Shown here: in pieces, positions 1,627 to 36,997 of the stretch
How the letters are laid out: each line of letters starts with the position of its first letter
How positions within the stretch are numbered: position 1 is the stretch's first letter
Source: Sphaeroforma arctica JP610
Taxonomy: Eukaryota
NCBI RefSeq assembly: GCF_001186125.1
Contig: NW_014039997.1
Coordinates: forward strand, 1-36,997
Direction of reading: 5' to 3'
Length of the DNA: 36,997 nt
The notes under the pieces: generated by a model
Seen by the model: the letters and a program-made list of their open reading frames with translations, nothing else
The model's database searches: none
What the model was told of the DNA's origin: nothing
Position numbers and translations under genes: made by a program

Positions 1627-9446
<7,820 letters not shown>

Positions 9447-11077
9447 CCTCAGCTGTGGTCTACTGAGGTGTAGACTCTTCCCGTCTCCGAGTAGTACGTA
9501 GGATCGTGAGCCTTCATTACAGCAAACACAAATTACACAATAGATTTATCAGAGCGTAAACCAAAACACGCTCTAGCAAATATCAGAAGAGCCGAATGAG
9601 GGCCACACAGACACCGCCCATTCGTATAAGGACAGCAATTTAGGCCAAAAAAAAAAATGTCAAATGGGAATACCAAATAAGGTCGCTTGCAACACTTGCA
9701 TCCAGCACGGTAAAATTGCGCAACTGCAATGGAAGAATTCAAACTGAGTCAAGCAACGACTGGGCGAGAGCTTAGAACATTAGGATCAGGAAAATGTCAG
9801 TTTCTTCAGAGTCTGACAATCTCATACAGTCCGCAATACGAAGGCGAGATAATCTCACACACTCCACAATTTATGGGTGAGATTACTACCAATCAAAAAG
9901 AGTGAATCAATACACAAAATACGATGTATACAGCCTCATAGACCATACATGGGCCCACTTAGTCTCAATCCACCTACTCGTTGGATAACACAGTCATCGA
10001 GCCTGAACCAAAAAATATAGTCATCAGTACAAACGCCAGATAGAGTCCCACGAATACAGTCGGCTCCCAGAGGTGTGAAAGAAGCTTATCACTACAGCTG
10101 AAGACAAAAAATATTCTGCACGATGATTATGCTAAACAAGGCGTGTGTGAGTATTTCTCGGCCCGTTTCGGCCGTAGGAATCATCAATTCCAAGTATGTT
10201 ACGTACCTTCGCGATACTTTACTGCGATAAAATATATCATAACGCCATACAGCGATCGATTCGAGAAACCCGGTGTTGTTTTTTCGTAATACATTTTTTA
10301 TTGGTCTCGAGAAATTAGAATGTCATTGATTTAAATTGATATGTAGACCAACTGCACGCGAATCCACCCCTGAGCAAAATGCAACATATAAATATGTTGT
10401 TGCGTGGAACATTGTGCTAAGACTAAGATTCATTTGATCCTCACGTATATCATTTCCGAATAATTAAACTTTTGCACATTATAAACATCTTGTAGGTACG
10501 TCCTATCTCACAGATTGATACCGTAATATTTTTCCACGCATTGCCGGACGAACATCTGACCTCTCGTATCCAATATATCGCTTCAAAGGAAGATGAACGA
10601 GTGTGAACTTCTACACCTAAATATTTAATAATTGCTAAGAACAATCGCACAGATATGACAATGTTGAGCAAACAAATCTACAAATGGGGTGCAAAAGTAC
10701 AACAAATGCATATTTATTTTAATAGCTAGATGCTTGTTCGTATATGACTGAATAGTGTTTTAAACAACAAGAGGGTGAAAGTATATGCACGTGCACATGC
10801 AAAATAGGTTGAGTGCACCGTCATATTTGTGGGGGAGTTTATGCATGTTTTAATTCCTTGCGTGCTATCGTTTTTAAGAATATTACGAAGCCAGACAAAC
10901 TGCTGCTTTATAAGCATGTAATTTATTTTTGAATAATTAATTTCATACTCTATGACTATCCCATATATTTTTTAAAGCTACTGCATACGTTTATAAAAGC
11001 CTGTGAAATAAATTATGTAAAGTTAGATATGAGTTTTGATTTCACAACTCTCGGCTGGCATCTGAGGAAAATTGGGA

Positions 11078-11256
11078 CATTGAAAGGTAGATATCATCTT
11101 ATACAGATTGATCATGAGTCTCTAGAACCACTCTGCTCTTCATCGGTATCGCCAAATATGATTATTGTAAGGACTTATCGTACATGGCTGATAATAAGAA
11201 TCATTTCGCTACCTTTGATGCTAAGTACCTGGAGAAATTTCTGAACCGGGAATTTG
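11078..11256 (+). repeat. Dispersed direct repeat, copy 1 (~180 bp); possible DNA-transposon relic
   Basis: CATTGAAAGGTAGATATCATCTTATACAGATTGATCATGA... also occurs at 12742. Confidence 0.85.
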
Positions 11257-12741
11257 AGCTATGGAGGATTTAGGGCGCTGGTGCTGAATATGTAAAACTG
11301 GTATTATTTGTACTTTTTATAACCACACAATACCTTTATTTCTAGTTGTGGCATATTAGTCAACGTTACGGGTGTTACTTCGTCGTGACGTTTGCAACGG
11401 AGCATAGAAACCCGTCAGAAATCAATTATCTCCCGCGCAGTAGAACGAGCCCCATTTAGAGCACAGATTTATAGAAACCAAAAGAGGCGATATTCGAAAA
11501 TTCGAAGCTCAAAACATTCGTTTTAGCCACCACTGCAATCATGTCCTTTAAATAGGGCCCAGTAAGCACTGTGCGTTGTTCCCGGGAAAGGCCACGCATT
11601 CAACATCGGCATTTGCTGATCTAAGTGAACGCGGCAGCAAAATAGAATACTATGACACTTACTATCATTAGTAAATCGCCACTGCCCTGTGTAAAATGCA
11701 CAGAGAGAGAACAAAACCTACTCAAAGACGTTTTCATCATGAGAGAACCGACACCAGAAAGTTCACAGCCGACACGCACAGATATATTGTAGTGATGCGC
11801 GTAGTGACTCGCTTTGATAGCTTTGGGTGTATACATATACAGATATACAAACTTTAATCCGCATGCATGTGAATTAATTTTGGCCCAGATGAAAAAGTGT
11901 GTGATCGTTTATTCTAGATTTGAGTAGTCTCGACACCATGCCAGTCATTTATATTCTAGGCCGCTCACATGCAGATGCGTGTACCCTTGCCAGTCATCGT
12001 TCCAGACAAGACCGCGTGGGGCCTCCACTGTTTCCTTCATACTGGAGCGAAGCCGCATATCTATACAAGAATGAATGAAGAGAATGGTTTTGCTCCACCT
12101 TGTGAAAAACACAGACCATACAACTCCTAGTAATATGAGGTCACACATGAACACTAACCAACAAGAAAATACCAAGAGGGGACATGTAATGAGCATAGAA
12201 AGCGTTTACCCAGTGCAAGGGACAACGTATCGTCACAGGGAGTCTCAACTTCAAGGTCGCAGCCGGAGCTTCAAATGGGAGCTACCAGTCAACAGAAGAG
12301 TATAAGCTATACTCAAGTCTCTATAGATGCCTCTTATGGTATCTTCACACGCCAATGTCTGCTAGAGTTGATGAGAATCAGCATTTAACTGAGACTCAAC
12401 AACGATGCGGAGTCGAATGGCAAGGTCTGTAGATTTATTGCAGAATAATTACGCAAGTACTGAAGCAGAAAAGTATTAAGCAATAAAGCAAATGCTGACA
12501 CAAAAGAGAATATAGAACAACCAAGCGTAAATCATATGTGAATGCTTTGCGTAATTTAAATGTATGAGGAATTCCCAAGTGTTAGGGTAAGTACGGGAAC
12601 CAACCCACACGACATGTATATCAAAGGCGGATATGCTGCTGCGATCCATTTGAATATATATGGGTTCGGGTTTAAATAGTTTGGTCAGGTTTTATTTGAT
12701 ACGTTATAGCAAGACATTCTTTGAATGATCGATAATAGGGG

Positions 12742-12936
12742 CATTGAAAGGTAGATATCATCTTATACAGATTGATCATGAATCTCTAGAACCAACCACT
12801 CTGCTCTTCATCGGTATCGTCAGATATGATAGTTGTAAGGACTTATCCTACATGGCTGACAATAAGAATTGTTTCGATAGCTTTGACGCCAAGTACTATC
12901 TCGAGCAACTGGATAAATTTTTACACCGAGAATTTG
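12742..12936 (+). repeat. Dispersed direct repeat, copy 2
   Basis: Aligns to 11078-11256 with substitutions and small indels. Confidence 0.85.
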
Positions 12937-14655: not shown

Positions 14656-16859
14656 GGCAAAAACGAGGAGTAGCAAACGCAGAGCAAAAAAGTAATAAGC
14701 AAGTAAATACTTTCTCAAGTGATCCCATGCAAAAGTATGTGCAAATGCAACACAAGTCTCAAATAAGGATGTGTATGCTCAAAATACCAAACCGACTCCA
14801 TTAGCGCATCATTTGCAACAAAGAAGGACGTCATGTAGAATAGAATTTCTGCGAAAAACAATCCTAGGGCATTAGCTGCTATGCCTAAATATGCACAACT
14901 ACAATTCTCAGCAGTGTTCTCCTATAGAGGAGCAATAGGCTGCCAGTAGATTTAGGCAGCAGTGCTCGGATTATAAGACGGGAGTATTATCAATTCGATA
15001 TTTAATTTATACGCACCAAGCAGCAATACAAGTCACCAAGCAGTAATACAAGTCCTACTTGATGCGATCACAGCTTCAAAATAGTGAAGCTTGTTGTCGA
15101 CAAAGATACACCATAACGAATGGGTTCTCCCTGTAGTCAACAAAATTGAGACTTGACTGCAGTCAAGTAATGACTTGACCGAATTAGCCCAGCGTCCACG
15201 GTAGAGTTCCCAGGACATACATTAATATTGTTGTGGATGCATCTGAGGAGAGGCTGGGGTGTGGAAATCCGGGCCTGCTGCTTAGCCATGTTGATGTTCT
15301 GTTTGTAAGTATGCGTAACACAAGCAAGGCGATGTCTTCTCTGTGTCCTAGTTAATGTTTTCAATGATGGCGAGGTTGCCAGTTGATTGATGAACCTCAG
15401 AAAAGGCGGCAACCTTTCTGTACGTATGTGGATGAGTATTGTTGTTAGTCATGTTACTAAGGTTGTTCGATACGAAATACTGTAGTTTTTGTTAGGCATT
15501 GTCAGTTGTTGAACATTGTAAAACACTTCTCTTTCTTTGTAGTGGGTATTCTGGTATTCTGCATCTAGCAGGACGCCCGTCCTTAGCCTACTATGTACTA
15601 TCGGCTACAAAGATGCCAAACTTATCAAATGTTGATCGAATCTTTTTCTGAGTTGATCTCGTACATTGCTGACCAGTGGACAAAGCAGCAGTCGTTTGCC
15701 CATCGTGCAAAGCTATGTTTGTCTGGGTTTAGTGTCTTGAGGGCTACTGTCTAATATCGATATGTATATTTCTAGTGAGCTGACCAGTACAAATGATAGA
15801 CAGAATTCAAACAAATAATTATTTTTTATTGAAACCCGAGAAGTAATTGTATGTCGTTAGGGTGTGCGCATAACTTTAAATATGAAAGCTCTGATTGATA
15901 TCGACAACGCTTAGATTCACTCCTGGATGTGCATCTCTTATTAAAAGCGTTTCCGCCTTGCTTCTTCTTCTTCTTTAGGTTTATAAGGTCGTTGATTTTT
16001 CTACCCTTTGTTTCATCCTTGTTTCTTTAGTTATCTGACTAACTGTGGGCATAAATGGTAGTATACAAATCCCTGCCCAAGTAGTTCTGTGTAAGTGAGC
16101 CAATGGTTGTACCATTTCTTGCGTCTTGGTTAGTAGTTTTCAATCAAGTTCGTTTTCATAAACTAAAGGGCGTGCGACTCGTTAAAATACTGTTTTCGTT
16201 TCGATCGTTTGCCTACATCCAATGAATGCACTATGTTCAACAATTTGAAGACGAGAATATTTAAATGTATAACCTTCGAGTGATCAGGTAAGTTTTGCTA
16301 GGTTGGGACCAATGATATTCCGTATAGAGGCGGTAGCTATTTATAGCGTAGCGCAAGTTTGTTGTTTCAATCGTGTAGGTCTTTCTTGTACACGAATTCT
16401 CCGTGTGTGGAGCGTTCTGTGTGTTTATTTACTTACGCATAGAGTATTCGTGCTTCATGCGCCATTGCGGTTGAAGTTGATACATGCTTTCTTCTCATCT
16501 CCTGATCTTGATTCACCCTTGCCACCTCGGCCGAAGATGCAATAGTTTGAGCATATCTTGTATGTGCAGTAGATCTTGCTTACTTTACAGGTGTGATAGT
16601 GGCTAGCAGCGTCTCGATTGACGTGCTTTGTAGAACAAAAAGAACACTATCATCAGATCTAGAATAAAACTACAATTAGGTACCAATAATGGCGCACCCC
16701 AGGAACAGTCAAGTGATAGGTGTCAAAGGTGTCAAATATACTCACCAAAATATGTCATGTCTAAAACACTTACGTGTGAACGCACATGCCTAGAAAGTGT
16801 ATGTGCATATATAACCCTCCATATATGGTGGAATGAAGCTACTCTACTTACAAAAAAGT

Positions 16860-17545
16860 ACACAGACACAAGGGGTAAATTACGATGAGACATTTGCACC
16901 CAAGTATTTACCTGCTCTCATGAGACTCTCTGTGGTCAAAACCGAATAACGCTCAGTAAAGAGCTTTTAAGTCTGAAATAAGACTCAGTCAGAAAGTGAC
17001 ATTGGGAACGGCGCGTCTGCTATATATATTAATCACGATCCTATGTGGAACAAGACTCTCTCTACCATCGGGTGATGTGAAGATACCCGTGTATATGGTT
17101 TCGGATGAGTCATCACTTCTATCTCATTAAAGTCTCTATTCCACTAATCGGTCCGGTCCTCTGGTCCGGACCTCAAATAATCACCCAGGTCCGGTCCTCT
17201 AGTCCGGTCCTCTGGTCTGGACCTCAAATAATCACCCAGGTCCGGTCCTCTAGTCCGGTCCTGGATTCCTCTCTTGCAGGTCCGGTCCTCTGGTTCGGTC
17301 CTAAACTTCTCTCTCAGGTCCGGTCCTCAGGTCCGGTCCTAAATATCCACCTAGGGTACTTTATCAGCCACACAAAGGTGGAACGTTGAACAGATGTAGG
17401 CTGATACGGCCTACCATTACGCAGACTTGGACGAACCGATCTTCATACGTCCCCCAAAAGGCTCCGGTACTGTAGGGCTCCCAGAAGACTTCATTGTGTC
17501 CTTTAAAAGAGCATCTACGGTCTCAAACAGGCAGGTCGCCTATAT
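16860..17545 (+). pseudogene. Ty1/Copia reverse transcriptase N-terminal fragments, interrupted
   Basis: TQTQGVNYDETFAP at 16860-16901; WNVEQM*ADTAY...LDEPIFIRPPKG and frameshifted KSIYGLKQAGR at ~17378-17540. Confidence 0.85.
17150..17342. repeat. GGTCCGGTCCTCT-based minisatellite with a ~51-bp higher-order unit
   Basis: About ten GTCCGGTCCT-like units; CAAATAATCACCCA spacer occurs twice. Confidence 0.9.
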
Positions 17546-17699
17546 CAAGTTAAAGCTCTTAGGGAAAATATTATTTATTTCAAAAGAGATAAGTTACAAT
17601 GTATGTACATATTGTATGGCTCTCATAGCCATTGTAGTGGTACGGGATGATCGATGAGAAGAAGTGGTCAGTAAATTCCCATTTGAAACTTGGGCCAAG

Positions 17700-18245
17700 T
17701 GAGTCGACGATCGAGAATATGCGCTTGGACAATTCAGGCCGGTGCTGACAAAAAACTGACACCATCGAGTGTGCCACGTATTCGCTTGCTGACCTACCAA
17801 GTAGTGTACCCACCTCTGTGGTACGGATTTGGTCGGCACCGTGTAGTGCCGTGGAATGGGATAGTGCAAATTACGAAACACCGAGTAGGACCAGGTTATC
17901 CATCATAATTCGGTTGAGGAGCGAGGTTGGGGGTAAACCAATGCCGCATCAGACCATGGATACACTCGGCATGTGCAGGTTGGCCTGGATCGGAAGTATC
18001 ATAGGCGGAACCAACAAGCGCGATGACCAAAATTTGGAAGTAGTACTTCAACAGCGTGTTTAGCCGGGGAATGAGGAACATCTGCTGATGTGTTAGAGAC
18101 GGGTGGGGGTACTGGGATTGTTCTGCATGCCGGAGAAAGGATCCAAGGTGTTCGTGGAGGGTCCAGATGCCGTGGAAGTCGTGGCACTCCTGTAATTGCT
18201 GGAGGAGGTCAGGGCCAATGGGAGCGTCGGATTAGTTGTTGGATG
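17700..18245 (-). mobile_element. 3' portion of the LINE-like element, continuing from 26763 across the solo LTR
   Basis: Removing the solo LTR and one GATG TSD restores LCLACPGSYKFTTSHFAC|IQQLI, a C-terminal CCHC-like motif; left boundary approximate. Confidence 0.55.
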
Positions 18246-18410
18246 TGTAAGTTTCGGTCTATTAAGGCGATATTAACGCCTCAGAGTAAATAAACGCTTA
18301 GGGTAAGTCTAAGTATATCAAAATTTAAAAGTAAATAACCGAAATGAGTCTTTTAGTAAAGTTAGGTATACCTCGTGAAAACAGCAATACTCTGAGGGAT
18401 TGTGAGGCTG

Positions 18411-18494
18411 AGACATTGCCTATATATAATCCTCTCAGTACTGTTTTCGCCCAGACATTGCCTATATATAATCCTCTCAGTACTGTTTTCGCCG
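18411..18494. repeat. 42-bp tandem duplication inside the solo LTR
   Basis: AGACATTGCCTATATATAATCCTCTCAGTACTGTTTTCGCC occurs twice; single copy in the 31996-32750 LTR. Confidence 0.9.
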
Positions 18495-18611
18495 AAGGGA
18501 TTTTATTTAGCGCTTCGTTGTCGCTCTATTATATGTTTCGTTTGGGCGAATCCGAGAGACTCATAAAATCCTATCTTTAGAAAGAAAAGAAAAAAAAGAA
18601 AAAAATACTCT

Positions 18612-19333
18612 TGTTGTGCGCTGTAAATGTATTAATAGTGCGCTTAAGTTTTGCATAAGAAAACTACTGTCAAGTGATAAAAACCTAGTTTATTCGCGTT
18701 CAGTCTAATATACGTGTTGTTACTCACGATAGAACTGAACTTATATTATTGTAAGAGCTTCCTTTTATACGTAAGCTCATAACTGTGTAGCTTAGTACTA
18801 AGGTTCCAATGCATCACAATAAAGAGATGTAGTCCAACAAAGGTACAAGTACTTGCCGATCCCCTCCCATCTCCGCCTCACTAGGGAAAAGGCGACAAGG
18901 CATGCATGTGGCACAAGCTTCCTTCCTCCACGTATGCCTTATACACCAATGATGCGTGCCTCCATAGGTATACATGTGCCTTGACACACATATACTGAAT
19001 CTGATCCATCTCTCACTTACTAGCACGTGCTGACATGCGCTACATAGCTTCCCTAGGCCTAACAGGCACACCGTGCCCCTCCCTATTACGTAGCATTGCG
19101 CTATACAACACGCGCCAGGATGTCATCGCGTAAAACATGAAGACTTGGAACTGTAAACCCTCTAACTTAGGAAGCTAAAGAATAAACTAACTAAAACCTA
19201 AGTTTATCCTCACAAACTTGGTTTATCCAGCAGTTTTTAACCAAATATTTTAGGGAGACATTTGCATCCTAAATTTACTCTTTCAGGGCCAAAAGTGACC
19301 TTGCTCCCAGTTTAAGGGCTACTGCGCCTTACA
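18612..19333 (-). repeat. 3' LTR of Gypsy-MT (722 bp)
   Basis: Near-identical to 25641-26361 (~26 differences by manual count); weak purine-rich GAGAGGCG immediately upstream on the - strand. Confidence 0.95.
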
Positions 19334-20043: not shown

Positions 20044-21215
20044 CTATCGACTGAGTCGGGCCCAACGAGAGCGCGACAGCAAGAGGTAAGTACGGTGCAA
20101 ACGCAGTTGTTTCTTTTTGAACGTGACCAAATGCATGACTGGTCCATCATGTCCCGTAACCTCCGCGGGACGAAACCACCGAGCACGTAGTTTGTGATGC
20201 CCTACGTCGCACCAGAAGCGGACTTGCGTTCCAACTGGAAGTAGCTGTGTATCTTGGCGTGATTGGTTAGCATAATGCTGCTGCTGCATGCGGCGTCGTA
20301 TCATCCAATCGGAGTGCTACACGATCTCTCACTAGTGCACTCAAACCCTGATTCGAAACCAACGTTTCACCTATCTTCCGCTGCAGCGAACCCCTCTGGG
20401 GACCATCATAAACTCTGCCCGTGTGCAGAAAAAAATGGTGAAAAGCCCGTCTGAGGCACCACCGTAGCATTGTAGGCAAGCATGGCAACATAGATGTTAG
20501 CCACCCACTCATGGCAAATGTCTGTGTCATCCATTTTAGATACCCATTTACTAATGGTGCGAATGGCCCTTTCTGCACGGCCATTTCCCCCATGATGGCC
20601 AACTGACGTTAAGTGTACATGGCTACCCAAATTAACACAAAACAGGTCAAAAACAGAATTGCCAAACTCCGTGCCGCGGTCGGCCACAAACTGGAGCGGC
20701 ACACCCCACGGTAAGATCTGTTCACGAACAAACTGAATGACACCTTGAACGTTTTTGCTGGATTGAGTAAATACTCTGACAGCCAAAAGTTTGGACGTCT
20801 CATTGACCGCTACTAACACCGAACACTCTCCTCCCGGTGCTTTGGGGATCTCCAAGAAGTCCATCAACCAGTTGACAGAGAGAACCACAGTGCGCTCCGG
20901 TTGTTAAAGAAGCCCCAGTGGTTCCGTTGGAGGACACCCATGCATCTGGCAAGGGCCGCATACACGTCCAATCAACCGTACCTGCGGACGCAACCCCTCC
21001 CAACCATCGACCAGTTGACAGAGAGAACCACAGTGCGCTCCGGTTGTTAAAGAAGCCCCAGTGATTCCGGTGGAGGACGCCCATGCATCTGGCAAGGGCC
21101 GCATACACGTCCAATCAACCGTACCTGCGGACGCAACCCCTCCCAACCCAGAACGTCCCTTACAAGATGTTGCAACAGTGCCTGGGCAGCATGGACATAT
21201 GCTACATGCAAATAT
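20044..21215 (-). pseudogene. Integrase (HHCC zinc finger, DDE core, GPY/F-like tail), disrupted
   Basis: LHVAYVH...CGPC; MDFLE, ADRGTEF, NGRAERAIRT; KLRARWFRP; contains stops and a 143-bp duplication. Confidence 0.92.
20861..21146. repeat. 143-bp tandem duplication in the integrase
   Basis: 20861-21003 and 21004-21146, about 4 substitutions. Confidence 0.92.
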
Positions 21216-21787
21216 TGCAATGCCTTCACCACCTGAGCCCCTGACAGCGGCACCCCCCACAGAGAACGTGACGGGCACGCTAACAATATCGGCCAGGGGT
21301 CAACGGGTAAGGGGATGGCTGGACGAGTACGTTTCGATGGCGGCTGGTGACTGTCAGCACCGGTTATCGCCTCCACCGGGCCAGACTCTTCGTTACTACC
21401 ACTGGGCGGAAGTACACGTGGGCGAGCAGGCTCAAGACTGTGCCTCCCTACTTCTCGAGACAACATCCGCTGCTCGAAAGACACATCCGCCCCGGCTGCA
21501 ACGACTTGCGGACGTATCTCCCCTTTGTCCAAGGCCTGGGCCAGAATAGTAGGGTGCATCTCTGGGTGAGACACAGCCAGCCCAATGACGGCAGCCGCAA
21601 CCCCAGGAAACACTCCTGTACGCACACCTTTCCCGCTAATCATAGGAGAACACACAAGTGGTGCGTTACTAGGCAAAGGGCGAACTGAAAGCAACGAACT
21701 CTCACTCGGCAACGCCGTCACCGGAGACACCGCTAAGGAATCACAGCGCTGCCATAGATCAGCGGAGACCTTAAACTGCCGAGGCCC

Positions 21788-22190
21788 TAACCTGCACGCA
21801 AGGGTGACAAAAGAAGGTGGACCAGTGGGTGAGTGTCCAAAACGCGAGAAGATACCCTCCATACGCGGGATTACCGTAGGCTCATCCGCCAACAAGGAAC
21901 ACAACTGCAGGAACCAAGCCGCCGAGGGCCAATACGGACATATCAACGTGCACCAGGCCTGGTCTCTCTGCGCCTTCTCAAGGACAGCTGTCGACAGAGT
22001 CCAAGGAGGGTTCATAAACCAATTAACGGTAGGGTCGCCCCAGAAACGTGCAAAGACGCCACCTTGCAAGGTTGGCGAGCAGTAGTAAGGCAATAGATTG
22101 CTGCCTGGGAGTGCCAAACCGTTCGCTGTGTGGGGTCCCCACCGCTTTTCCAAGCGTCGAAAGTATGCCGACGTCAGCATATATTCCTCC
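21788..22190 (-). CDS. Dam-like DNA N6-adenine methyltransferase domain within Pol
   Basis: EYMLTSAYFRRLEKRWGPHTANGLA..SNLLPYYCS..VFARFWG...WFMNPPWTLSTAVLEKAQRDQAWCTLICPYWPSAAWF matches the DIRS/phage-Dam MT pattern; NPPW at 22001-22012; open and in frame with RNase H. Confidence 0.88.
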
Positions 22191-22279
22191 GTAGTGGGTA
22201 GCTGGACCAGCGGGTCCGCCCATGACACTCGGAAGCTCACTCTTTGTCCCTGAACCTTGAGAATAGGGTCAATAGACAC

Positions 22280-22672
22280 ACACAGACGCGATAAAATGCC
22301 TGCCACCGGGGTATCTACCCCAGGCACATGGATTTTTTCTACGTCGAAGTCTCTCAGAACGTCGTAGTAACGCCCCATGCGACGCCCTCGTACATCATCT
22401 GGAAAAGCAGCACGGGCTTTGCTGAGCATCGCTAGAAGGGGTTGGTGATCAGTACATAAGCGGATCGGAAGAAGAGCTCTTCTAAGCACCCGCGAATTCT
22501 TCTTGATACCATACACTAAGGTAAATGCTTCCTTGTTTGTAATGTGGTATGCGAACTGAGCAGAGTCGTACCTAGATACAAAGAAGCATACTGGGAGTAG
22601 GACTTCATCTCGTAGGACAGCTAATTTCCCACCTACCCCAACCGATTCACAAGCATCAGCGTACATGACCAT
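22280..22672 (-). pseudogene. Ty3/Gypsy RNase H domain
   Basis: YADAC..GVGG.L, NKEAF, TDHQPL, HVPG...VAGILSR; separated from RT by an in-frame TAG at 22673-22675. Confidence 0.93.
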
Positions 22673-23530
22673 CTACTCCTTAGGGCGAGGTTCGACAAAG
22701 ACTGCACAAGACTGCAGACATTCATTTAAGCACGCAAAGGCCTCACGCTGAGGTGCTGCCCACACAAATTCCACCTTGTCTTTGAGCAATGCTGACAAAG
22801 GGGCTAAAATACGTGCGAAGTTGGGTATGTAGTCGGACCACCACCCCACCGTGTGGTACCATGACTCCAGTAGGTCCTTGGAGGTAAGCTCTTGCAGTGA
22901 TAGCAATGCCTCCAAACGTCCCAAATCGATCGTTGATCCTCGATAATCAATTAATCGGCCCAGGATCACTACTGGCTTCGTATATTGTGTAATGCTACAT
23001 TTAGAGAGCCTCAACTGTACTCCATATTGTGCACAGCGAGCAACTAGTGCCAACAAACATGTCCAGTGCTCCATAGGATCATCGTGTGCAAAGGATATAT
23101 CATCGATATACCACATGATATCCATAAGTCCAGCAAATACATCCCCCAGCATCTCTTGGCAGCGACAAGATGCCTCCTTGAGACCAAAGGGCATTCCTAC
23201 AAATGCAAAACGGCCAGCTGGAGTTACAAACATAAGGTACTTCCGAGACGCTGGAGCCACACGACGTTGGCACAACCCCTGCCCCATATCTACTGTCATC
23301 ACCCAGCGCTTGCCCTTGAGCGTTGATAGATATTCTCTTTCTGTAGGTATGTAATGTGGCTCAGCTCGAAGTTGTGTATTCACCCGCTTTTAAGTTGATA
23401 CAGCAGCGCCAGTCATCTACTGTCTTAGGAATGACCCCAGGTTTCTTAAACACTAAGTGCGGTGCTGAACACAATTCTGACTTATCGATGCGCTCAATTA
23501 GCCAAGCATCTATCTTCAACTGGAGTGCTT
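22673..23530 (-). pseudogene. Ty3/Gypsy reverse transcriptase
   Basis: APHLVFKK..DWRCCIN (frameshift near 23385), VDMGQG, MPFGLKEAS, YIDD at 23099-23110, KC, LG, YIPNFARILAPL. Confidence 0.96.
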
Positions 23531-23959
23531 CTAGCTTCAAAGGGTCCTTGTCAAAACAGCTGACGTACTGCGGGATGGCATCCTCACTCTCACTAATCAC
23601 CAGGTCAGGTAAGTTGAGGAAGCGCAGGGCCAGGTCAGCTAACAGTTGTTGCAACACCCCTTCCGTTGCCCCACATATACTAGCTAGATCCTTGATGCCT
23701 TCAATGCCTAGAGGTGGATCCTTCTCCTCGTCCCACACCTCATACTCTTGCTCCTCTGCTGCCCACTCAGCTGTGCAATAACGTTTCGGTTCTCTAGCCA
23801 GCACACGCCCTTCTAACACCTCTTCTGTCACCCCTACTCTTTTCTGCAGCGTCTGAAACACCGCTTGCTCTCCACTGACACTACCGGTATCTGTCACTAC
23901 AGTCCCAACCTCCTCTGCCTTACCCATCAGTTCCAGGTAGGCAATTGTTAACTCAGCTT

Positions 23960-24317
23960 GCGGCGCCACACAAAGCACACCTTGCTTCCACATCAGGTGC
24001 CACTTATGCTTTTGTAATGTGTTGTATCCTATCAGTAACTCACAGCCAATTGGTACTTCTGTGACGACTAGGCAGTCTATCCAGTGTTCAGCAGTGTGAC
24101 CACCCCAAGTAACCACCGCTAACTTTACTCTTGTAGCCCCTAGCGGCTGCAGCAACCCCATGTCCCCTACACCAGTGAACACTTCACCTTCGTACTGGTG
24201 TACTTTGACTTTTAACTCGGTTGCAATTGTTTGAGTGATTAAAGTAGGTGTAGCCCCTGAGTCCAGATAGATCTTAACCCAGCGTGAACCTACCCAAGCA
24301 CCTGATACCCCCGCAAG
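23960..24317 (-). pseudogene. Retropepsin aspartic protease
   Basis: VKIYLDSGAT (~24253-24280) and LLIGYNTL; in frame with gag after a TGA. Confidence 0.9.
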
Positions 24318-25593
24318 TCACTCCTGTCCCGGGGTCACGAAGTTAGTGGCACTTGCCACCACCGACACCTTGTCATTGCTCTTGTTGCTTACTACCGCAT
24401 CCTTAGCGCCATCCTTAGATACATGCTTCAATGCTACTACCACAGCCGCCTCATCCCACTTTCTCTTAAGCGCTTCCTTTTTCCGCTTCTTGAACTTCTG
24501 CGCAGCACCTTGTGGGACAGTTCTGCTGCTGGTCTTGGCAACACAGTCTCTCTCAAGATAACTCGCACTTCCGCAGGAGTGACAACCAGAGTAACGATCC
24601 GAGCCCGGTACCTGCCCCAAGGCTCCTACCACACCTCCAGCACGATTGCCCTCTTGTGCGGACGGCCTTCTTACTAGCAGTAAGTCACTCTGGATTTTAA
24701 CAACCAGGGGGGGTTCACCTGCTTCATAAGCGCTTTCTACCGCCACTCTATCTTTCTCTAAAGGGTAGCAAGCAATGGCAAAGTTTCTTAAGTCCACTTC
24801 AGTGGCCTTGAGTTTTGTCATGACCTCTTCCCCAAACACTGGATATCTCAACATCGTCTCTATGTCAGCTTTGACAAAGGTGTCTGCTAGCACTGGTTCC
24901 ACCAGACAGGCCACCGCTTGAGCCCTTTGCTTTGATAAGGTGTAGAAGTTCTCGATGACGGCACACAGCCGCTCACCTTCCACAACATCGTCATTGCTAA
25001 TAAGTTTTTTTTAGCAGCAGTCATTAGGCTATTAGCCAGGGTGTCTTCCTGTGTACCTTCAGTGGCACCTGCAGTAGTCTTCTTGGCCTTTTCATCTCGC
25101 ACCGTCAGGTTCCAATCTTCAATTCTCTGAGCACCATACCCCCATTGAGCCACGAGGTCCAGGCCGCAGTAAGTACAGCTTTGAAAGCATTGAACTTAAA
25201 TTCCTTAGGATACACTACTTTCAACGCATGGTCATTCGATATGGATTCTGCTAAAACCTTAAGTTGGGGCGCAGGATTTACCAACAACATTCTCGTTGTT
25301 CTTGCTTCCATCAACACATAAGCCATTGTCCATTCCGTAGAAACCAGCGGTGTAGGCACCGCCGCCTTCACCTTGCTCGATAATTCCTCCTTCAGAATCT
25401 GGTGCAAGATAGCATAAAGATCTGTGCAACGGGTGCCATTGTCATAGACATCCTTGGCGATCCCACCTCTGTCATTCTGCATCGTCATACGGACACCATT
25501 CCAATCCACCAGAAATTCATGACGAGATGCTCCATACTTCTGCTTCCCCGCATAGGCTCCAAACCGGCCCTTGGCTGCATCTGAGATCGACAT
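24318..25593 (-). pseudogene. Gag, frameshifted into three ORF pieces, with a degenerate zinc knuckle
   Basis: ORFs 25105-25608, 24887-25153 and 24318-24983 directly after the 5' LTR; CHSCGSASYLERDC (CX2CX4[H>Y]X4C). Confidence 0.8.
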
Positions 25594-25631
25594 TTCAATA
25601 TCCCACACTATTAATTGTTGTATCTATGAGT

Positions 25632-25640
25632 ACGTATATT
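25632..25640 (-). promoter_or_regulatory. Non-tRNA primer-binding site (AATATACGT), putative self-priming
   Basis: Abuts the 5' LTR with no TGG; exactly complementary to 25736-25744 inside the LTR. Confidence 0.6.
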
Positions 25641-26361
25641 TGTTGTGCGCTGTAAATGTATTAATAGTGCGCTTAAGTTTTGCTTAGGAAAAACACTGTC
25701 AAGTGGTAAAAACCTAGTTTATTCGCGTTCAGTCTAATATACGTGTTGTTGCTCACGATAGAACTGAACTTATATTATTGCAAGAGCTTCCTTTTATACG
25801 TAAGCTCATAACTGTGTAGCTTAGTACTAAGGTAACAATTTATCACAATAAAGAGATGTAATCCAACAAAGATACAAGTCTTTGCCGATCCCCTCCCATC
25901 TCCGCCTCACTAGGGAAAAGGAGTCAAGGCATGCATGTGGTACAAGCTTCCTTCCTCCACCTAAGCTTATACACCAATGATGCGTGCCTCCATAGGTATA
26001 CATGTACCTTGACACACATATACTGAATCTGATCCATCTCTCACTTACTAGCACGTGCTGACATGCGCTACATAGCTTCCCTAGGCCTAACAGGCACACC
26101 GTGCCCCTCCCTATTACGTAGCATTGCGCTATACAACACGCGCCAGGATGTCATCGCGTAAAACATGAAGACTTGGAACTGTAAACCCTCTAACTTGGGA
26201 AGCTAAAGAATAAACTAACTAAAACCTAAGTTTATCCTCACAAACTTGATTTATCCAGCAGTTTTTAACCAAATATTTTAGGGAGACATTTGCATCCTAA
26301 ATTTACTCTTTCAGGGCCAAAAGTGACCTTGCTCCCAGTTTGAGGGCTATTGCGCCTTACA
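25641..26361 (-). repeat. 5' LTR of Gypsy-MT (721 bp) with TATA-like and poly(A) signals
   Basis: TG..CA termini; on the - strand TATAAAAG (25791-25798), TAATATAAG (~25769-25777) and AATAAA (25718-25723). Confidence 0.95.
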
Positions 26362-26766
26362 CTCTTGATGTCCATAGTTATTGCATTAACCAATAACTTG
26401 CCACTTATCAAGAGTTACCGACTTAGCCTTCATCCGACTGGCACATCTGGTTGGCTGAACGGAGAATAAACTAAGCAACGCTAATAGTCCTTGGAAACCT
26501 ATGTTCGGTTGAGCCATCTCGTTACCGAAGTATTCAGATATAAATAGATTTGGAAGGTAAATATAGTTCTATTAATAGAACTAGAGCAGATCTTATATTT
26601 GGTATTTTACTGGGGCCTTTTTTTGGCCTTGTCCAATTATCTGATATATAAAATGGAAAAGGTATTTAATTAATAAAAACCGTTAAAAGCCATTTAAGAG
26701 TTTACGTACTTTAAGAGTACGTTTATATTACAAGATTCTAATGTGGAGGCCCGGCTTTTACAGATG

Positions 26767-28958
26767 CAGGCAAAGTGGCTGGTGGTGAATTTGTAGCTAC
26801 CGGGGCAGGCAAGGCAGAGATGTACGTAATCGTTCCAATCATAGCACAGAGTCGGATTGGTGTAGGTTCGAAGCAGCGGTTAAAGCTGTCGTGTCTGGCT
26901 TTGTCTCGATTTGAGGTTGGCGGTTAGCCCATGACCAGTTGGTAGTAGTATTGGTGCCGGGCCATTGCCGCGATCTCTTTGTTGGACCAGCGTTTCGTTG
27001 AGTTCTTCCTAATGTCGTCACAGCGTCGGCGGAGGGCTACATGGTCGGGTGTACGCCCGCCCATGGGTTTGTGTACAGTTTTCAGGTGGGCATAGATACT
27101 GTACGGGAAGCACAGTGATGGTTTGTCGTGGGCCCAGGCGGGTTGCGTCAGAGGGGTGAGTGGGTTTGTACTGGCTATTGAGTAGAGTTGTATTCCCAGG
27201 CAACCTCCGAGGTAGTCCGCGAAAGGTCGCGCGGGGAACAGGCCACAAAAGTGGAGTAAGTTTGTTTGATGTTTGATAAACCTAGGGTATTTAGTGCCCG
27301 TGATGATGGCTGCTGCTCGGATGAATGCTGAGTTATAGCGCTCGAACAGGGGGTTCAGCGCCAGGCAATAGTGTTCAGGCCATATGTAGCCGTGGATAGG
27401 TGAATGTTTTGAACAGCACCAGTCGGTTGTGGGAGTGTCACCAGCTGAAGCTATGGAAGCCATAAGCGCAGAAAGATACCCAAGGACAATGCTGCAACCA
27501 GGGATTCCATATGTCTGGCGAAGTTGATCCCTGGTTCTCCGTGAGAGAGTGGGAACCTCAGATATTAGGAGAGTTTAGACTTGGCATGTGTGGGCGGCAT
27601 CTTCAGGGAGAGGTAGCGTGTGTTCCAAGGTGCGTCTGCGAGCGTCGGCGTGATAGGCTCCCCATTTATACGGAGGGTTGGTGCCGCGTGTCGCAAGTCG
27701 GTAGATCGTACTCGGGTTTGATGGCACCCTGTTCGAGGCCAGATTTGCGTCTCCACGCATGAATGTCGTCTAAGAAGGGCCGGAGTGGAACCGGTTGGGG
27801 GGCTTGGATCCGTGTGCCGTCGACAATTAAACTAAGGAATCCATGTTGATAATAAAGAGCTAGGGGCCAACGATTGAGTCTTGTAGGATGTCATTCGTTC
27901 AACGGAATAGAGGCGAGAGCGTGCCGCGGTATGTCACTCGGGTAGGGACCTTTTAAAATAGCGCGCGGAGACAGTTGATCTAGTTTTAGGGCATTCCAGC
28001 GTGGCGCAGGAGTACCATATGCGTGGGAGAGCAACCTTATCGTATGCTTTGGTAATATCCAAACATACGTCATTACACTCCTCTTCCGACTGTGTCTCAG
28101 ATTTCATGGCGGCGAGTGCTTGGGTAAAACAGGAGTATCGTGATTTGAAGCCAGCTTGGATAGCATGGATTGCAGAGCCGGGGTGGCTCGTAATCAGCTT
28201 AATGAAGCACTTTGCGTCTGACTATTTGAGTTAGCGTGATAGGGCGGAAGTCGGCGGGGGAGGTGATATCTGCATCAGCCTTTTGGGGGGGGTGCGCTGT
28301 CAGGAGGCTGCAGTTCAGGGATGCAGGGAAGGTACCCGCCTTCAATAGCTCAGTGAATGCTTCGGCACGGAGTCTAATCAGTGGGCTATTGGCGTCGGGG
28401 CGTCCTAGTGGCCTGCGTTCGGTGGAACGCTCCACTGCAGCCTTCAGGAGGAGGATGTGGATCCCGTTGGGATAGCATAGTCTCCATTACATCGTCGGGG
28501 TGTATGGCAGAAGTTACATCTGGCAAGGTTCGGTATCCGGTGGAACCACGTAAGGGTTTGTTGAGTTGAATAGCTTCTCAAAGTAGCCAGTGTCATCGGC
28601 ACCCAGTATGCAGGGTTGGCGCGGAGACCGTCGTTGGTACGCAAAATCTTTAAACATGTGAGTATGGCTTTGGGCGGTCAGACGTGGGCGGAACGAGGGG
28701 TTTGGCAGCCGCTAGACCCAGTGTCTGTTTATGTCGTAGTCCCCCGAAGATTTGTGGGTTACCGGCATAGCGCCAGATGCGGTCGAGGATCCGTAGCAGC
28801 CCTTCCACTCGTCTGTACAAAGTGAGATACGACCGTAGTAGGTTCTGCTGCGCCCGGATTTTGGCTTGGAATAGTCGCGCGCGGGATTTGTTGCGTAGGT
28901 GATAAAGTCGATGGCGGAATTGGTAATATCCATGAGAGGGGAGGCATTGATCCGGAGG
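26767..28958 (-). pseudogene. Non-LTR (LINE) ORF2 reverse transcriptase, degenerate
   Basis: YFEKLF, PNGIHILLLK, DFRPITL, QAGFKSRYSC, LDITKAYDKV (~28033-28063), DILQDSIVGP*LF (~27863-27892), FLDD (~27765-27776), terminal CLAC..H..C. Confidence 0.88.
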
Positions 28959-29621
28959 TGACACGTAAACTTCGATAGATATTTCTATGTCTTAAACTAT
29001 GTTATATAAACTACGAGATAATTTAAGTCAGTTAGGATTTAGCAGTGGTAGCTTGTGTAAGAATGATCGGGACTGCCTCTTGGTAAGAGCCTTAGTATCC
29101 TCGATCACACAGGACGTACCTCTAGCTGTTCTTTATTGAATAATTTTCACTAGAAGTACTAAGTGTTCATGACCACATGTCTAATTTATAGATAGACATA
29201 AGAACGTAAGTCAAGTTAATACATTAGCTAATATAAATAAAGTTCCATCTGAAGAAAAGTTAAAAAAATTGTCTAATTTATAGATAGACATAAGAACGTA
29301 AGTCAAGTTAATACATTAGCTAATATAAATAAAGTTCCATCGGAAGAAAAGTTAAAAAAAGAAAAAGACTTATTGGATTTTGGAGATTGGCGGGAAGACC
29401 AAATCCTGTAAGTAGTAGTTCAGAGATTATAAAATTTAGCTTATAATATCCTACATAATAGAACCAAGTAAATGAGTCATACCAAATACTCAGGCTATTG
29501 GAGCCATCAAAGTGAATTTAGAACACTTTGGAAATATTGGGGAAAAAACTTGTATTAAAATATTTTAAATACAAATAGAAACCAATGTGTTATCTCATTT
29601 GATCTTGATATTTTTGACTGA
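28959..29621. mobile_element. AT-rich insertion splitting the LINE, with a 92-bp tandem duplication (29178-29360)
   Basis: Sharp drop in GC content; CCGGAGG on both flanks (28952-28958 and 29622-29628); family unknown. Confidence 0.5.
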
Positions 29622-31414: not shown

Positions 31415-31715
31415 TCGACAAAAATAACACTATCATCAGATCTAGGACACAACTACAATTCGAAACCAAGGTTGGTACACTTCAGGACAGCTGTCAAAGG
31501 CATCAAATATGCTCACCAAAATAAGTCATGTTTAAAAATTTACGTGTGAACACACATGTTTAGAAAGTGTATGTACATATAAAATCCTCCAGATAGGGAT
31601 AATATTAATTATTTCAAGAAAGATAAGTTACAATGTATGTACATATGGTATGGATCTCATAGCCGTTGTAGTGGTTCAGGAAAGATCGATGGGAAGAAGT
31701 GGTCAGTAAATTCCC
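31415..31715 (+). repeat. Repeat homologous to 16630-16825 plus 17561-17680
   Basis: Shared AACACTATCATCAGATCTAG, TGTCAAAGG..CTCACCAAAAT, TTACGTGTGAAC, AGATAAGTTACAATGTATGTACATAT and GAAGAAGTGGTCAGTAAATTCCC. Confidence 0.85.
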
Positions 31716-31995: not shown

Positions 31996-32750
31996 TGTAA
32001 TAGCCGGGCCTCCACATTAGACTCTATGTTATAAACGTACTCGTAAGCAGTACGTATACTAAAAACGTACTCTTAATAGTACAAGGAACCTAAGTTTCCT
32101 AAATGGGGGTTTAATGGTTTAATTAATTAATACCTTTTCCATTTTACATATCAGATATTTGGACAAAGCCATTAAAAGGTCCCAGTAAAATACCAAACAT
32201 AAGAGTTGGTCTAGTTCTATTAATATAACTATATTTACTTTCCAACTTTATTTATATTTGAATATTTCGGTAGCGAGATGGCTCAAGCGAATATAGGTTT
32301 CTAGGAACTATTAACGTTACCTAGTTAATCCTCCGATCAGCCAACCAGATGTGCCAGTCTGATGAAGGCCAAGTCGGTAATTAAGTGGCAAGTTATTGGT
32401 TAAGACAATAACTAAGGACATCAAGAGTGTATCTTTTCTTCTTTTTCTACAGATAGGATTTTATGAGTCTCTCAGATTCGCCCCAACGAAACATACCATA
32501 GTTTCTAATAGAGCGACCACGAAACACTAAATAAAATCCCTTCGGCGGAAACAGTACTGAGAGGATTATATATAGGCAATGTCTCAGCCTCACAATCCCT
32601 CAAAGTATTGCTGTTTTCACGAGGCATACCTAACTTTACAAAAAGTCTCATTTCGTTTATTTACTTTGAAATTTTCACGAAACTTAGAATTTACCTACGC
32701 GTTTATTTATTCTAAGGCGTTAATATCGCCTTGAGAGACCGAATCTTACA
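31996..32750 (+). repeat. 5' LTR of Gypsy family B (755 bp)
   Basis: TGTAA..TTACA termini; homologous to the split solo LTR; followed by gag-like ORFs. Confidence 0.88.
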
Positions 32751-32877
32751 CATTTAAAAGTTAGCAAAGGTATTAATTACTTAGACTACTTAAGTGTAAA
32801 GGTAGATTACCTACCACACAAATTTTCTTGTCCAAGCTAGTCCTTGAGAGACAAGCTAGTAGTCATAAGTTAAGATT

Positions 32878-34667: not shown

Positions 34668-36216
34668 AAACACGCCCATTCAGAGTTATATTCTGAAGCT
34701 AGATGCTGACCTGAAACGTCCAGATAACAAAGGACAAGGCACAGCGATGATGCGAGTTCCTGGTTATGCACGTGTTCTGTAAGAACATGGGAATAACGAC
34801 CGTGAGAGCCTGTACACCGAGTTGCGACGTAAACACGCTACTGAGGCTCGAGACAAGGGACATGAAACAAAGTTTCATCTATCCCGACCTACGTGGGAAC
34901 AGTTTTATGATACTGTATCCACCCTTTTTCCCGCACACCGAGTAACATCGAAGGGAAAAGCGGCAGTTAAGAAGCCGCGAGAGCACACCGATCACGGGTA
35001 CGTATCCAGGCAGACATCAAACGAGAGACCCCAACATACACGTGCTCGTGACTCCACTCTATCCACGTGACCCAATAAACGGGCACGCGCGGTGGCGAAG
35101 GACAAGGAACCTCCATTTAAGGAGATTAAGAAATGTGCCGACGCACAGTGTGGGTATGACATGTACCAATTGACCCCTAACGGTTATTGGAATGGCAGGC
35201 ATGCATCCACCTGTACACACTTTCTTATTAAGTACGACAAGTGTGAGAAGACCAATGGCTATCACACTAAGTCTTGTGACAAAAAGCCCGACATTAAGTT
35301 GGAGTGAAAGTACAACCAGGTACAATCGTTACACAGACAATACAACGACTCTTTAGATGAGCGTGTAATAATCCCTGTATAGTGCAATGGAAGTAAAATC
35401 CTTGCGTTGATTGATCCTGGTTCTGAAATTTCATGTATATCCGATCGTTTTGCATTAATGAAAGATATCGAAAGGAGAACACAAACAACTCACCTCACTT
35501 TAGCAGATTATAAAACTTCTACGAGTGATACCATGGCCACAGATGTTAAAAAATATTCCTGGCCGATGATAGGAATATCACTACCCAAGCTGTGATAGTC
35601 AAGATGTCACAGAAGTACGACATTATAGACCTGCCCACGTCCGAGCACACAAGCGACCGTTACGTATGTTACTTCTTTGATGTGGCGTCACGGTTTAACT
35701 TGCTCTATCCATTAAAGGATAAGAGTACGCAGACCGTGGCAATTATGTTGCCAAGTCTTTGCACGGGTGGCCAGGTATTATGTGCACTGTTAACGGTAGT
35801 GAGTTCTGCGATGACGTAATGGAATCGCTAGTACTCGTATCAGGCATATGCCATAAGAAAGGTGTGCCATATAAACCGCAAACGCAAGGCGCGAATGAAA
35901 CGTGCCCTAGAAGATTTGAGTTCTTCTTGCGTACTGCATTAACGGATGATGCAGATGATTGGCCGTACCACCTTAAGTGGGTACAAACACAGATGAACGA
36001 GTGTGCTGATCCGGTTACAGAAACTACACCCGCTCACTATTTTTGTGGCAGATATAGTGAGTTATAAATACCCTTTAACAAGGATGAACCTGATCACCAT
36101 GAGTTACCATGGTTAGTGAAGGTACAACGTATTTATAACGTTGTATATCCTTGCTTGCGAGAAATACGCAATATAGCCTTATTAAAAAGGCAAAAGCATT
36201 GGAACAGCACACTCGT

Positions 36217-36997
36217 TCATATGTGTTTGTCTTTCTTATGGCATATGCCTGATACGAGTACTAGCGATTCCATTACATTATCGCAGAACTCACTAACGTT
36301 ATCACTGCACATAATACCTGGCCACCCGTGGTCAGCAAAGACTTGGCAACATAATTCTGCCACGGTCTGCATACTGTTATCCTTTGCTGGATAGAGCAAG
36401 TTAAACCGTGACGCCACATCAAAGAAGTGGCATACGTAACGGTCGCTTGTGTGCTCGGACGTGGGCAGGTCAACCAGATCAATAATGACCCTGCGCCATG
36501 GAATATTTTCGGTCACACTCCCAAGCGGTGCAAACCTATAGCGCTTGATCTGATTGAGATCACAGTCTGTAGGCAAAAACATATTTATTGCACTCATATC
36601 TAAACATACCCTGACTTTCTTAAACGATCCGTCAGAGTTATGTTGGTCTACGGCTAGCAGTGCCAAGTTAACTGGCGTCTGTTGATAGTTAATTTCTATC
36701 ACTCCATCTGCTAGCCATTTCTCAACTTGTTCTATTACCACAGCCTCGTGTCTCCAGGATACATAGTTCCTTGAGGGACACTTTAACTCTGTAAAGTCCA
36801 CCTTGGTTAAGTCAAGGCTGACATACCCGTGGTTAAAATTGTATTTTGCCCAATCTGTGATCTTTATCTTCTTATTAACTAAAGTCGAATCTATGATTTT
36901 GTTCGCAAAGCCAGGTATTAATGCCTTGACTGTGTCTGACGGGGGCTTATTGTCTGACTGTTCCTTTAATCGATCTATGTTATTTGGTAGACCAGTT
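36217..36997 (-). mobile_element. Second, convergent Gypsy copy: RT N-terminus fused to integrase core; truncated by the window end
   Basis: EQVEKWLADGVIE..KKVRVCLDMSAIN joined to APLGSV..PWRRVIIDLVDLPTS..CSDNVSEF; 36231-36471 is an inverted repeat of 35628-35861. Confidence 0.85.

What the first reader, a model, noticed from the sequence alone, without database searches (positions are those of the whole stretch)
21788..22190. Ty3/Gypsy LTR retrotransposon carrying a Dam-like N6-adenine DNA methyltransferase between RNase H and a DDE integrase
Seen: inside the 541-aa ORF (21047-22672, -), right after the RNase H end (HVPG..VAGILSR), there is an uninterrupted ~135-aa domain: F..L...WGPHT, N..P.YCS, F.R.W, W.MNPPW, VLEK, LICPYWP...WF. 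Established: [DN]PP[YWF] is the catalytic motif IV of amino-methyltransferases. An RT-RH-MT arrangement with a phage-Dam-like MT is characteristic of DIRS-type tyrosine-recombinase retrotransposons. This element instead has direct TG..CA LTRs, a 4-bp TSD, an aspartic protease and an HHCC/DDE integrase, so it is a genuine Ty3/Gypsy. Inference: a Gypsy lineage captured or retained an m6A (or m4C) methyltransferase. It could mark its own cDNA or LTR, for example to mimic host transcription-associated 6mA or to evade silencing or degradation. The Asp expected in the HTxD motif reads Asn here, possibly from decay of this copy. I cannot confirm whether such Gypsy-MT families have already been reported.
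Basis: partly seen in the sequence, partly recalled or inferred. Interest (0 to 1): 0.9.

Follow-up and report, generated by a model that had tools for sequence, protein, structure and literature searches.

The report
Dead Gypsy element with methyltransferase-fold domain
A broken, single-copy Gypsy-type jumping gene carries a domain related to adenine methyltransferases between its RNase H and integrase, which likely served to mark the element's own nucleic acid; the arrangement is real but was described in a 2026 preprint, and this copy belongs to a drifted branch that standard domain searches miss.

Summary
A 7.75-kb Ty3/Gypsy element (minus strand, 26361-18612; TG..CA LTRs 3.5% apart, 4-bp target duplication, PR-RT-RH-MT-IN) carries a ~150-aa domain of the retrotransposon Dam/PCIF1 family. 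Pfam Dam misses it, but 952 relatives are found, 26 of the top 30 hit PF05869, and the predicted fold matches CAPAM/PCIF1 (Z 11). It is no mis-assembly: contigs from several studies reproduce it, the RT is excluded from the DIRS-like subclades (AU p 5e-5), and three diverged sister contigs touch the domain. It is not new: bioRxiv 10.64898/2026.05.21.726589 describes DAM-LTR elements, including an ichthyosporean lineage, and this scan met the architecture before in other genomes. The nearest named relatives are Sphaeroforma arctica proteins (48%). This copy is dead (stops, frameshift, 143-bp duplication; motif-I acid lost). What it adds: its branch has drifted SAM-site motifs, 0 of 4 S. arctica relatives keep NPP[FWY], and none reaches the Pfam model that such screens use. 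Activity is unproven; the preprint's E. coli assay was negative.

The parts
25641..26361 (-). 5' LTR, 721 bp, TG..CA
18612..19333 (-). 3' LTR, 722 bp; 25 substitutions and 1 gap against the 5' LTR
26362..26365 (+). Target-site duplication, one copy (CTCT)
   Evidence: an uninterrupted paralog of the flanking repeat (32057-32753, inverted) has the 4 bases once
18608..18611 (+). Target-site duplication, other copy (CTCT)
24318..25593 (-). Probable gag, in two frames and broken (assigned by position; no Pfam hit)
23361..24317 (-). Aspartic protease (YLDSGA) and start of RT; frame break near 23385
   Evidence: PF13975 E 1.6e-5
22673..23389 (-). RT core (YIDD) and thumb; ends in an in-frame stop before RNase H
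   Evidence: best PDB hits 8R0S 3.5e-17, 4OL8 4.7e-16, Ty3-G Gag-Pol 7Q5B 3.4e-15
22283..22672 (-). RNase H; the conserved Asp of the terminal motif reads Gly in this copy
21776..22225 (-). Dam/PCIF1-family N6-adenine methyltransferase-fold domain; motif I Asn at 22123-22121, GGVF in place of the second acidic motif, NPPW at 22012-22001
21290..21775 (-). About 160-aa linker, with a short K-x-V-R-x-G stretch also seen in S. arctica relatives
   Evidence: by eye
21083..21226 (-). Integrase HHCC zinc finger
   Evidence: PF17921 E 0.19, weak; H..H..CxxC visible
20861..21146 (-). 143-bp tandem duplication (97% alike) with an in-frame stop, splitting the integrase
   Evidence: contigs break around it, with a 139-nt contig at raised depth,
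20406..20903 (-). Integrase core with D, D and E residues; truncated; no chromodomain found downstream
   Evidence: PF00665 E 3.3e-8; best hit Ty3-G, E 0.005

Best explanation
This is a broken Ty3/Gypsy LTR retrotransposon whose Pol frame carries, between RNase H and integrase, a domain of the retrotransposon Dam/PCIF1 adenine-methyltransferase family, which in active ancestors would likely have methylated adenines in the element's own replication intermediates. Shown: the architecture, the homology, the exclusion of the RT from the DIRS-like subclades tested, the lesions. Predicted: the fold. Inferred: the domain came originally from DIRS elements and was inherited within an LTR lineage; as part of Pol it is packaged with the element's RNA and so acts in cis on the RNA-DNA hybrid or new cDNA; the mark would let the host's AMT1 maintain 6mA and keep new insertions transcribed (the preprint's model, untested there too). 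The host is likely an ichthyosporean or relative, inferred only from the nearest named proteins. This copy cannot make Pol and its motif-I acid is gone. I put the identification at about 0.95 and the active-writer mechanism for this branch at about 0.5.
For: Homology: 952 hits; 26 of the top 30 hit PF05869 at E<=0.01; 34 of 57 rows of alignment A1 at E<=1e-3. Fold: model pLDDT 83.8, pTM 0.80; Foldseek ranks 1-6 are CAPAM (best E 4.6e-4); VIA-align Z 11.1, rmsd 3.6, 158 aligned, above KsgA/Erm 8.6 and Dam 7.6. NPPW is kept; NPP[FWY] in 96 of 146 other rows. Gypsy backbone; RT on the LTR side of a 100-support branch; nesting with either DIRS-like subclade rejected, p-AU 4.6e-5. Inherited, not pasted: the stretch between the two acidic positions has 27 residues in 56 of 56 DIRS-like rows, 20-23 in 13 of 15 LTR-borne rows and 22 here; MT groups with S. 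arctica proteins at 99 and next, at 86, with a clade holding Abeoforma whisleri proteins. Three diverged contigs in the same runs touch the domain, one also the pre-HHCC stretch; their loose ends, translated by eye, keep L-P-Y-Y-C and G-G-V-F with mostly different codons, a sign of selection on the protein. The preprint reports more 6mA and more expression on DAM-LTRs than on other LTRs in two ichthyosporeans.
Against: No direct Pfam Dam or PHROG hit for the window domain, no Dam hit for 5 of 5 S. arctica relatives. The second acidic position is Gly in this branch against D or N in 141 of 146 others; motif IV reads NSLF, NAPF, NPKW, NPKW in the 4 S. arctica proteins. Heterologous DAMs gave no 6mA in E. 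coli. Iyer et al. call all DIRS1 MTase copies likely inactive (PMC4738411, passage). Best fold matches are RNA enzymes. The 6mA enrichment is a correlation and may concern other families. The window RT is a long branch (2.3) and its place among LTR elements is unresolved (p-AU 0.53 and 0.32).
Confidence: 0.5

Rival explanations
1. In this branch the domain is a non-catalytic pseudo-enzyme kept for its fold: it binds the element's RNA or cDNA, or a host partner, inside Pol, and writes no mark.
For: Branch-wide Gly at the second acidic position, shared by the window, two S. arctica proteins and (by eye) a sister contig; 0 of 4 S. arctica relatives keep NPP[FWY], and NPKW occurs in two separate proteins; structural residues P116, W123, F41, G49 are kept where covered; negative E. 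coli assay; Iyer et al. proposal.
Against: The window copy keeps NPPW exactly; S. arctica relatives keep an acid (E) in motif I; those proteins are fragments of probably decayed copies, so their motifs may be decay; 45 of the 146 other rows also lack [DNSH]PP[FWY] at the aligned columns.
Confidence: 0.33
2. The domain is an RNA methyltransferase like PCIF1/CAPAM that puts N6-methyladenine on the element's own transcript, protecting or favouring it.
For: Closest folds are CAPAM, then KsgA and Erm, all RNA enzymes; some relatives hit Pfam's PCIF1 model weakly; Iyer et al. place DIRS MTases in the PCIF1 clade; no activity on E. coli DNA.
Against: CAPAM needs a large helical domain for cap and RNA binding (PMC8287941, passages), which is absent here; Pol is made in the cytoplasm after export; a shared fold does not fix the substrate; the preprint's enrichment is on DNA.
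Confidence: 0.14
3. The domain is a DIRS fragment nested in, or mis-assembled with, an ordinary Gypsy element.
For: DIRS elements have the same RT-RH-MT order (PMC2685390, PMC3783388, passages); the window's assembly has gaps; most top hits are DIRS-like (51 of 63 RT-bearing rows lack IN and PR).
Against: RH, MT and HHCC share one open frame; single contigs span 21119 to 25669 or further with 0 differences in 3 runs of 3 studies and 21119-23700 in runs of two more; LTR-type short loop; RT not DIRS; a sister contig holds both MT and pre-HHCC sequence; public polyproteins show the same RT-RH-Dam-IN order (P0017, P0019, P0027).
Confidence: 0.02

Closest known systems
DAM-LTR retrotransposons, ichthyosporean lineage (Fernandez-Moreno et al., bioRxiv 10.64898/2026.05.21.726589; main text read whole, supplements and figures not seen)
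   Same: Ty3/Gypsy backbone with a DIRS-derived DAM-family domain, NPP motif, no chromodomain found; nearest named relatives are S. arctica and A. whisleri proteins, two of the three species named for that lineage.
   Different: This domain and its five S. arctica relatives give no Pfam Dam hit, whereas the preprint's screen used hmmsearch at E 1e-5; SAM-site motifs have drifted; the RT is a long branch not shown to join the Abeoforma-containing clade. Whether the preprint's set holds this family could not be seen.
DIRS1-type tyrosine-recombinase retrotransposons (MT domain, PF05869)
   Same: RT-RH-MT order and homologous MT domain.
   Different: Direct LTRs, target duplication, protease and DDE integrase; no recombinase found; RT outside the DIRS-like subclades; shorter loop in the MT.
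PCIF1/CAPAM cap-specific m6Am methyltransferase (PDB 6IRV-6IS0)
   Same: Closest solved fold (Z 11.1); NPP-aromatic catalytic loop.
   Different: 14-18% identity; no WW or helical domain; embedded in a Pol polyprotein; substrate unknown.
E. coli / T4 Dam (GATC methyltransferases)
   Same: Rossmann N6-adenine methyltransferase core (Z 7.6 to 2G1P).
   Different: 7% identity, no target-recognition domain; the name 'Dam' here comes from Pfam PF05869 and implies no GATC specificity.

Membership tests
Ty3/Gypsy LTR retrotransposon | Direct LTRs with TG..CA ends and a short target-site duplication | tested here: met
   empty-site paralog at 32057-32753
Ty3/Gypsy LTR retrotransposon | Order PR-RT-RH-IN with HHCC and DDE integrase | tested here: met
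   (HHCC weak by Pfam, E 0.19)
Ty3/Gypsy LTR retrotransposon | RT of the Ty3/Gypsy type | tested here: met
   PDB hits include Ty3-G Gag-Pol at 3.4e-15; LTR side of the tree; no curated reference set was available
Ty3/Gypsy LTR retrotransposon | Primer-binding site and polypurine tract | tested here: inconclusive
   No TGG-type site right after the 5' LTR and only a short purine run before the 3' LTR; host tRNA set not available
DIRS retrotransposon | Tyrosine recombinase, no protease, no DDE integrase, inverted or split repeats | tested here: not met
DIRS retrotransposon | RT nested in the DIRS clade | tested here: not met
   p-AU 4.6e-5 for nesting with either subclade of 16 DIRS-like rows; rows labelled by absence of IN and PR, not by a recombinase
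DAM-LTR (2026 preprint) | Domain homologous to the retrotransposon DAM family inside an LTR element | tested here: met
DAM-LTR (2026 preprint) | Asn-Pro-Pro catalytic triplet with a following aromatic residue | tested here: met
   NPPW
DAM-LTR (2026 preprint) | Detection rule of the preprint's screen (profile hit at E<=1e-5); a search setting, not a biological trait | tested here: not met
   No PF05869 hit at E<=1; the preprint does not name its profile in the main text
Ichthyosporean DAM-LTR lineage | No chromodomain | tested here: inconclusive
   None found, but the 3' end is decayed
Ichthyosporean DAM-LTR lineage | DAM domain in one clade with Sphaeroforma, Abeoforma and Pirum elements | tested here: inconclusive
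   99 with S. arctica; only 86 (unstarred, quick tree) with the Abeoforma-containing clade; RT p-AU 0.32
Active N6-adenine methyltransferase | Acidic residue of motif I and an intact SAM pocket | tested here: not met
   Asn in this copy (D in 142 of 146), Gly at the second acidic position
Active N6-adenine methyltransferase | Methyl transfer to DNA or RNA | not testable with these tools
   Preprint's assay on other members was negative

The most novel reading that the evidence does not exclude
The window and its S. arctica relatives form a separate, Pfam-invisible DAM-LTR branch, missed by the published screen, in which a PCIF1-like domain has been kept under selection after rebuilding its SAM pocket, and now binds or marks the element's RNA rather than DNA. 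Methyltransferase-fold domains in Gypsy elements would then be commoner than reported, and partly non-catalytic or RNA-directed.
Probability: 0.25. Interest if true: 0.55.

Novelty: new member of a known kind. Interest (0 to 1): 0.3.

Why it matters
Whether retrotransposon-borne Dam-like domains are enzymes, and on what, has been open since they were noted in DIRS elements; the 2026 preprint extends them to LTR elements without showing activity. This copy adds no answer, being dead, but its branch is a natural contrast: the fold and NPPW are kept while other SAM-site residues drift, and profile screens miss it. Comparing intact members of this branch with canonical DAM-LTRs would separate 'writer' from 'binder'.

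Tried and rejected
No whole genome is held, so sister copies could not be read in full and no dN/dS was computed. Direct searches of the domain found nothing: PDB sequences (one hit at E 0.69, profile A1, only RNase H flank and noise), Pfam, PHROGs, word-based homolog searches (251 candidates, 0 hits, 3051 candidates, 0 hits), metagenome contigs (77 pattern matches, 0 confirmed). The viral-contig scan did not run and the wide structural search was not obtained. The Atlas gave eukaryotic clusters at 0.93-0.94, one with Dam on 27% of members: a lead only. The MAFFT --add column table misplaced the N-terminal half and was replaced by hmmalign. The first RT tree (64 rows, careful search unfinished) left the window unplaced; searches use 26 chosen rows plus the window; P0122 (long branch) was left out. 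The test 'window + all DIRS-like rows' (p-AU 0.53) only asks whether the window can sit on the stem outside the ten other LTR rows: it can. One origin of all LTR-borne MTs is not rejected and not shown (p-AU 0.71). All trees are quick searches with SH-aLRT only. Expression: no RNA holder listed. No tRNA genes in the window. m4C was considered and has no support. Literature: seven searches found no report of Gypsy-borne Dam domains other than the preprint; most subscription journals are outside the library.

Full report
Observation. The minus-strand ORF 22672-21047 (541 aa) begins with RNase H (PF17917, E 3.9e-8) and ends with a weakly scoring integrase zinc finger (PF17921, E 0.19). Pfam, PHROGs and PDB sequences do not recognise the domain directly, and two word-based searches found nothing. 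An exhaustive phmmer run did: 952 proteins at E<=1e-3, 40 at E<=1e-10. Of the best 30, 26 hit Pfam Dam PF05869 at E<=0.01; of the 57 rows of alignment A1, 34 do at E<=1e-3. A profile of the hits matches the window once, at about 22225-21776 (E 9e-41), and scores 138 bits against at most 9.7 for 1000 shuffles; this is partly circular. The structure is a second line: the model (pLDDT 83.8, built with alignment A1) matches CAPAM/PCIF1 at ranks 1-6 (Z 11.1, rmsd 3.6, 158 aligned), then KsgA/Erm (8.6) and E. coli Dam (7.6).

The element. LTRs of 721 and 722 bp (26361-25641, 19333-18612) start TG, end CA, and differ at 25 sites plus one gap. CTCT flanks both ends on the plus strand, and an uninterrupted paralog of the flanking repeat elsewhere in the window has it once. 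Protease, RT and integrase core are recognised; the RT's best solved relatives include Ty3-G Gag-Pol and the integrase's best is Ty3-G. The copy is dead: a break in gag, a frame break at the start of RT, an in-frame stop before RNase H, a stop and a 143-bp duplication inside the integrase, and a truncated end. No chromodomain was found, though the 3' end is decayed.

Is it a chimera? No. Contigs of public runs span 21119 to at least 25669 with no difference in three runs of three studies, and 21119-23700 in runs of two further studies, at the depth of other single contigs, so the element is single-copy at this similarity. The best holder may be the window's own source; the others may be the same strain. 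On a 27-row RT tree the window lies on the LTR side of a branch with support 100, and nesting with either DIRS-like subclade is rejected (p-AU 4.6e-5). The rows were labelled by presence of IN or PR, or by RT position, not by a recombinase. The window RT is a long branch, and its place among LTR elements is open (p-AU 0.53 and 0.32). The MT has the short loop of LTR-borne domains: 22 residues between the two acidic positions, against 20-23 in 13 of 15 LTR-borne rows and 27 in 56 of 56 DIRS-like rows. Three diverged contigs in the laid runs touch the domain, and one also matches the stretch at the zinc finger. Their loose ends, which I translated by eye, keep L-P-Y-Y-C and G-G-V-F with mostly different codons; this suggests selection on the protein but rests on 30-base pieces.

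Relatives. The closest proteins are Sphaeroforma arctica SARC_04494 (48% over 93%), SARC_12758, SARC_09610 and SARC_11737. In the 44-row MT tree the window and three of them form a clade at 99, joined at 86 to an 11-row LTR clade that holds two Abeoforma whisleri proteins. The host is therefore likely an ichthyosporean or relative; this was not tested on host genes.

Active site. Motif IV is NPPW here (NPP[FWY] in 96 of 146 other rows). The motif-I acid is Asn here, Asp in 142 of 146, and Glu in both S. arctica proteins that cover it, so its loss is probably decay of this copy, like the lost Asp at the end of RNase H. The second acidic position is Gly in the window, in two S. arctica proteins and in a sister contig, against D or N in 141 of 146: a branch trait. 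Motif IV reads NSLF, NAPF, NPKW and NPKW in the four S. arctica proteins. None of five S. arctica relatives hits Pfam Dam. Motif numbering and the role of these acids in SAM binding are recalled from general knowledge of Rossmann methyltransferases, not from a call.

Mechanism. A domain inside Pol travels with the element's RNA and replication intermediates, so action in cis is the simplest reading (inference). I rank: N6-adenine writer on the hybrid or cDNA, later maintained by host AMT1, 0.5; non-catalytic binder, 0.33; RNA writer of the PCIF1 kind, 0.14; chimera, 0.02. None is shown.

What is known. Fernandez-Moreno et al. (bioRxiv 10.64898/2026.05.21.726589; main text read whole; figures and supplements not seen) report DAM domains in Ty3/Gypsy elements in five lineages, one from Pirum, Abeoforma and Sphaeroforma without chromodomain; more 6mA and expression on these elements in two ichthyosporeans; and no activity in E. 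coli. Their sequence set could show whether this family is among theirs. Iyer et al. (PMC4738411, passages) place DIRS1 MTases in the PCIF1 clade and call them likely inactive, which agrees with the fold result here. DIRS architecture: PMC2685390 and PMC3783388 (passages). CAPAM anatomy: PMC8287941 (passages). Seven searches found no other report of Gypsy-borne Dam domains. Earlier notes of this scan describe the same architecture on other DNA and cite the same preprint; I had found the preprint before seeing them and did not check their DNA.

Verdict. Real, correctly read, and a new member of a recently described kind. Its added value is a drifted branch that the Pfam model misses. Interest 0.3; the boldest open reading (a missed branch with a non-catalytic or RNA-directed domain) has probability about 0.25 and would deserve 0.55.

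Noticed in passing
window 18243-18611 and 26358-26730; paralog 32057-32753: The element sits inside a ~700-bp repeat with an A-rich tract that attracts contigs at thousands of times single-copy depth; an uninterrupted inverted copy in the window gives the empty site.
   Followed up: partly
window ~3260-8570 (+): Multi-exon flotillin-like (SPFH/Band 7) host gene; weak Pfam hit E 0.009 on one exon; exons read by eye.
   Followed up: partly
window 27937-28221 (-): A second, decayed RT fragment (PF00078 E 1.3e-5), with coding-like GC from about 26900 to 29000; possibly a non-LTR element.
   Followed up: no
window 35628-36996: Another integrase core (PF00665 E 8.5e-6, 36220-36996, -), part of it repeated in inverted orientation (35628-35861 vs 36231-36471, 92.5%).
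   Followed up: no
window 25600-25640: No TGG-type primer-binding site follows the 5' LTR; unexplained, may be decay or unusual priming.
   Followed up: no
window ~21650-21610 (-): Short K-x-V-R-x-G stretch in the MT-IN linker recurs in five S. arctica proteins (by eye); perhaps a small conserved module.
   Followed up: no
window 17150-17340: Array built of GGTCC-rich units with 51-bp periodic blocks.
   Followed up: no
proteins P0014, P0028: Dam-bearing retroelement proteins with a weak Tudor-like hit after the Dam domain.
   Followed up: no
window 16635-16828 and 17560-17680 vs 31418-31715; 11067-11256 vs 12731-12936; 29178-29360: Further dispersed and tandem repeats, 78-99% alike.
   Followed up: no
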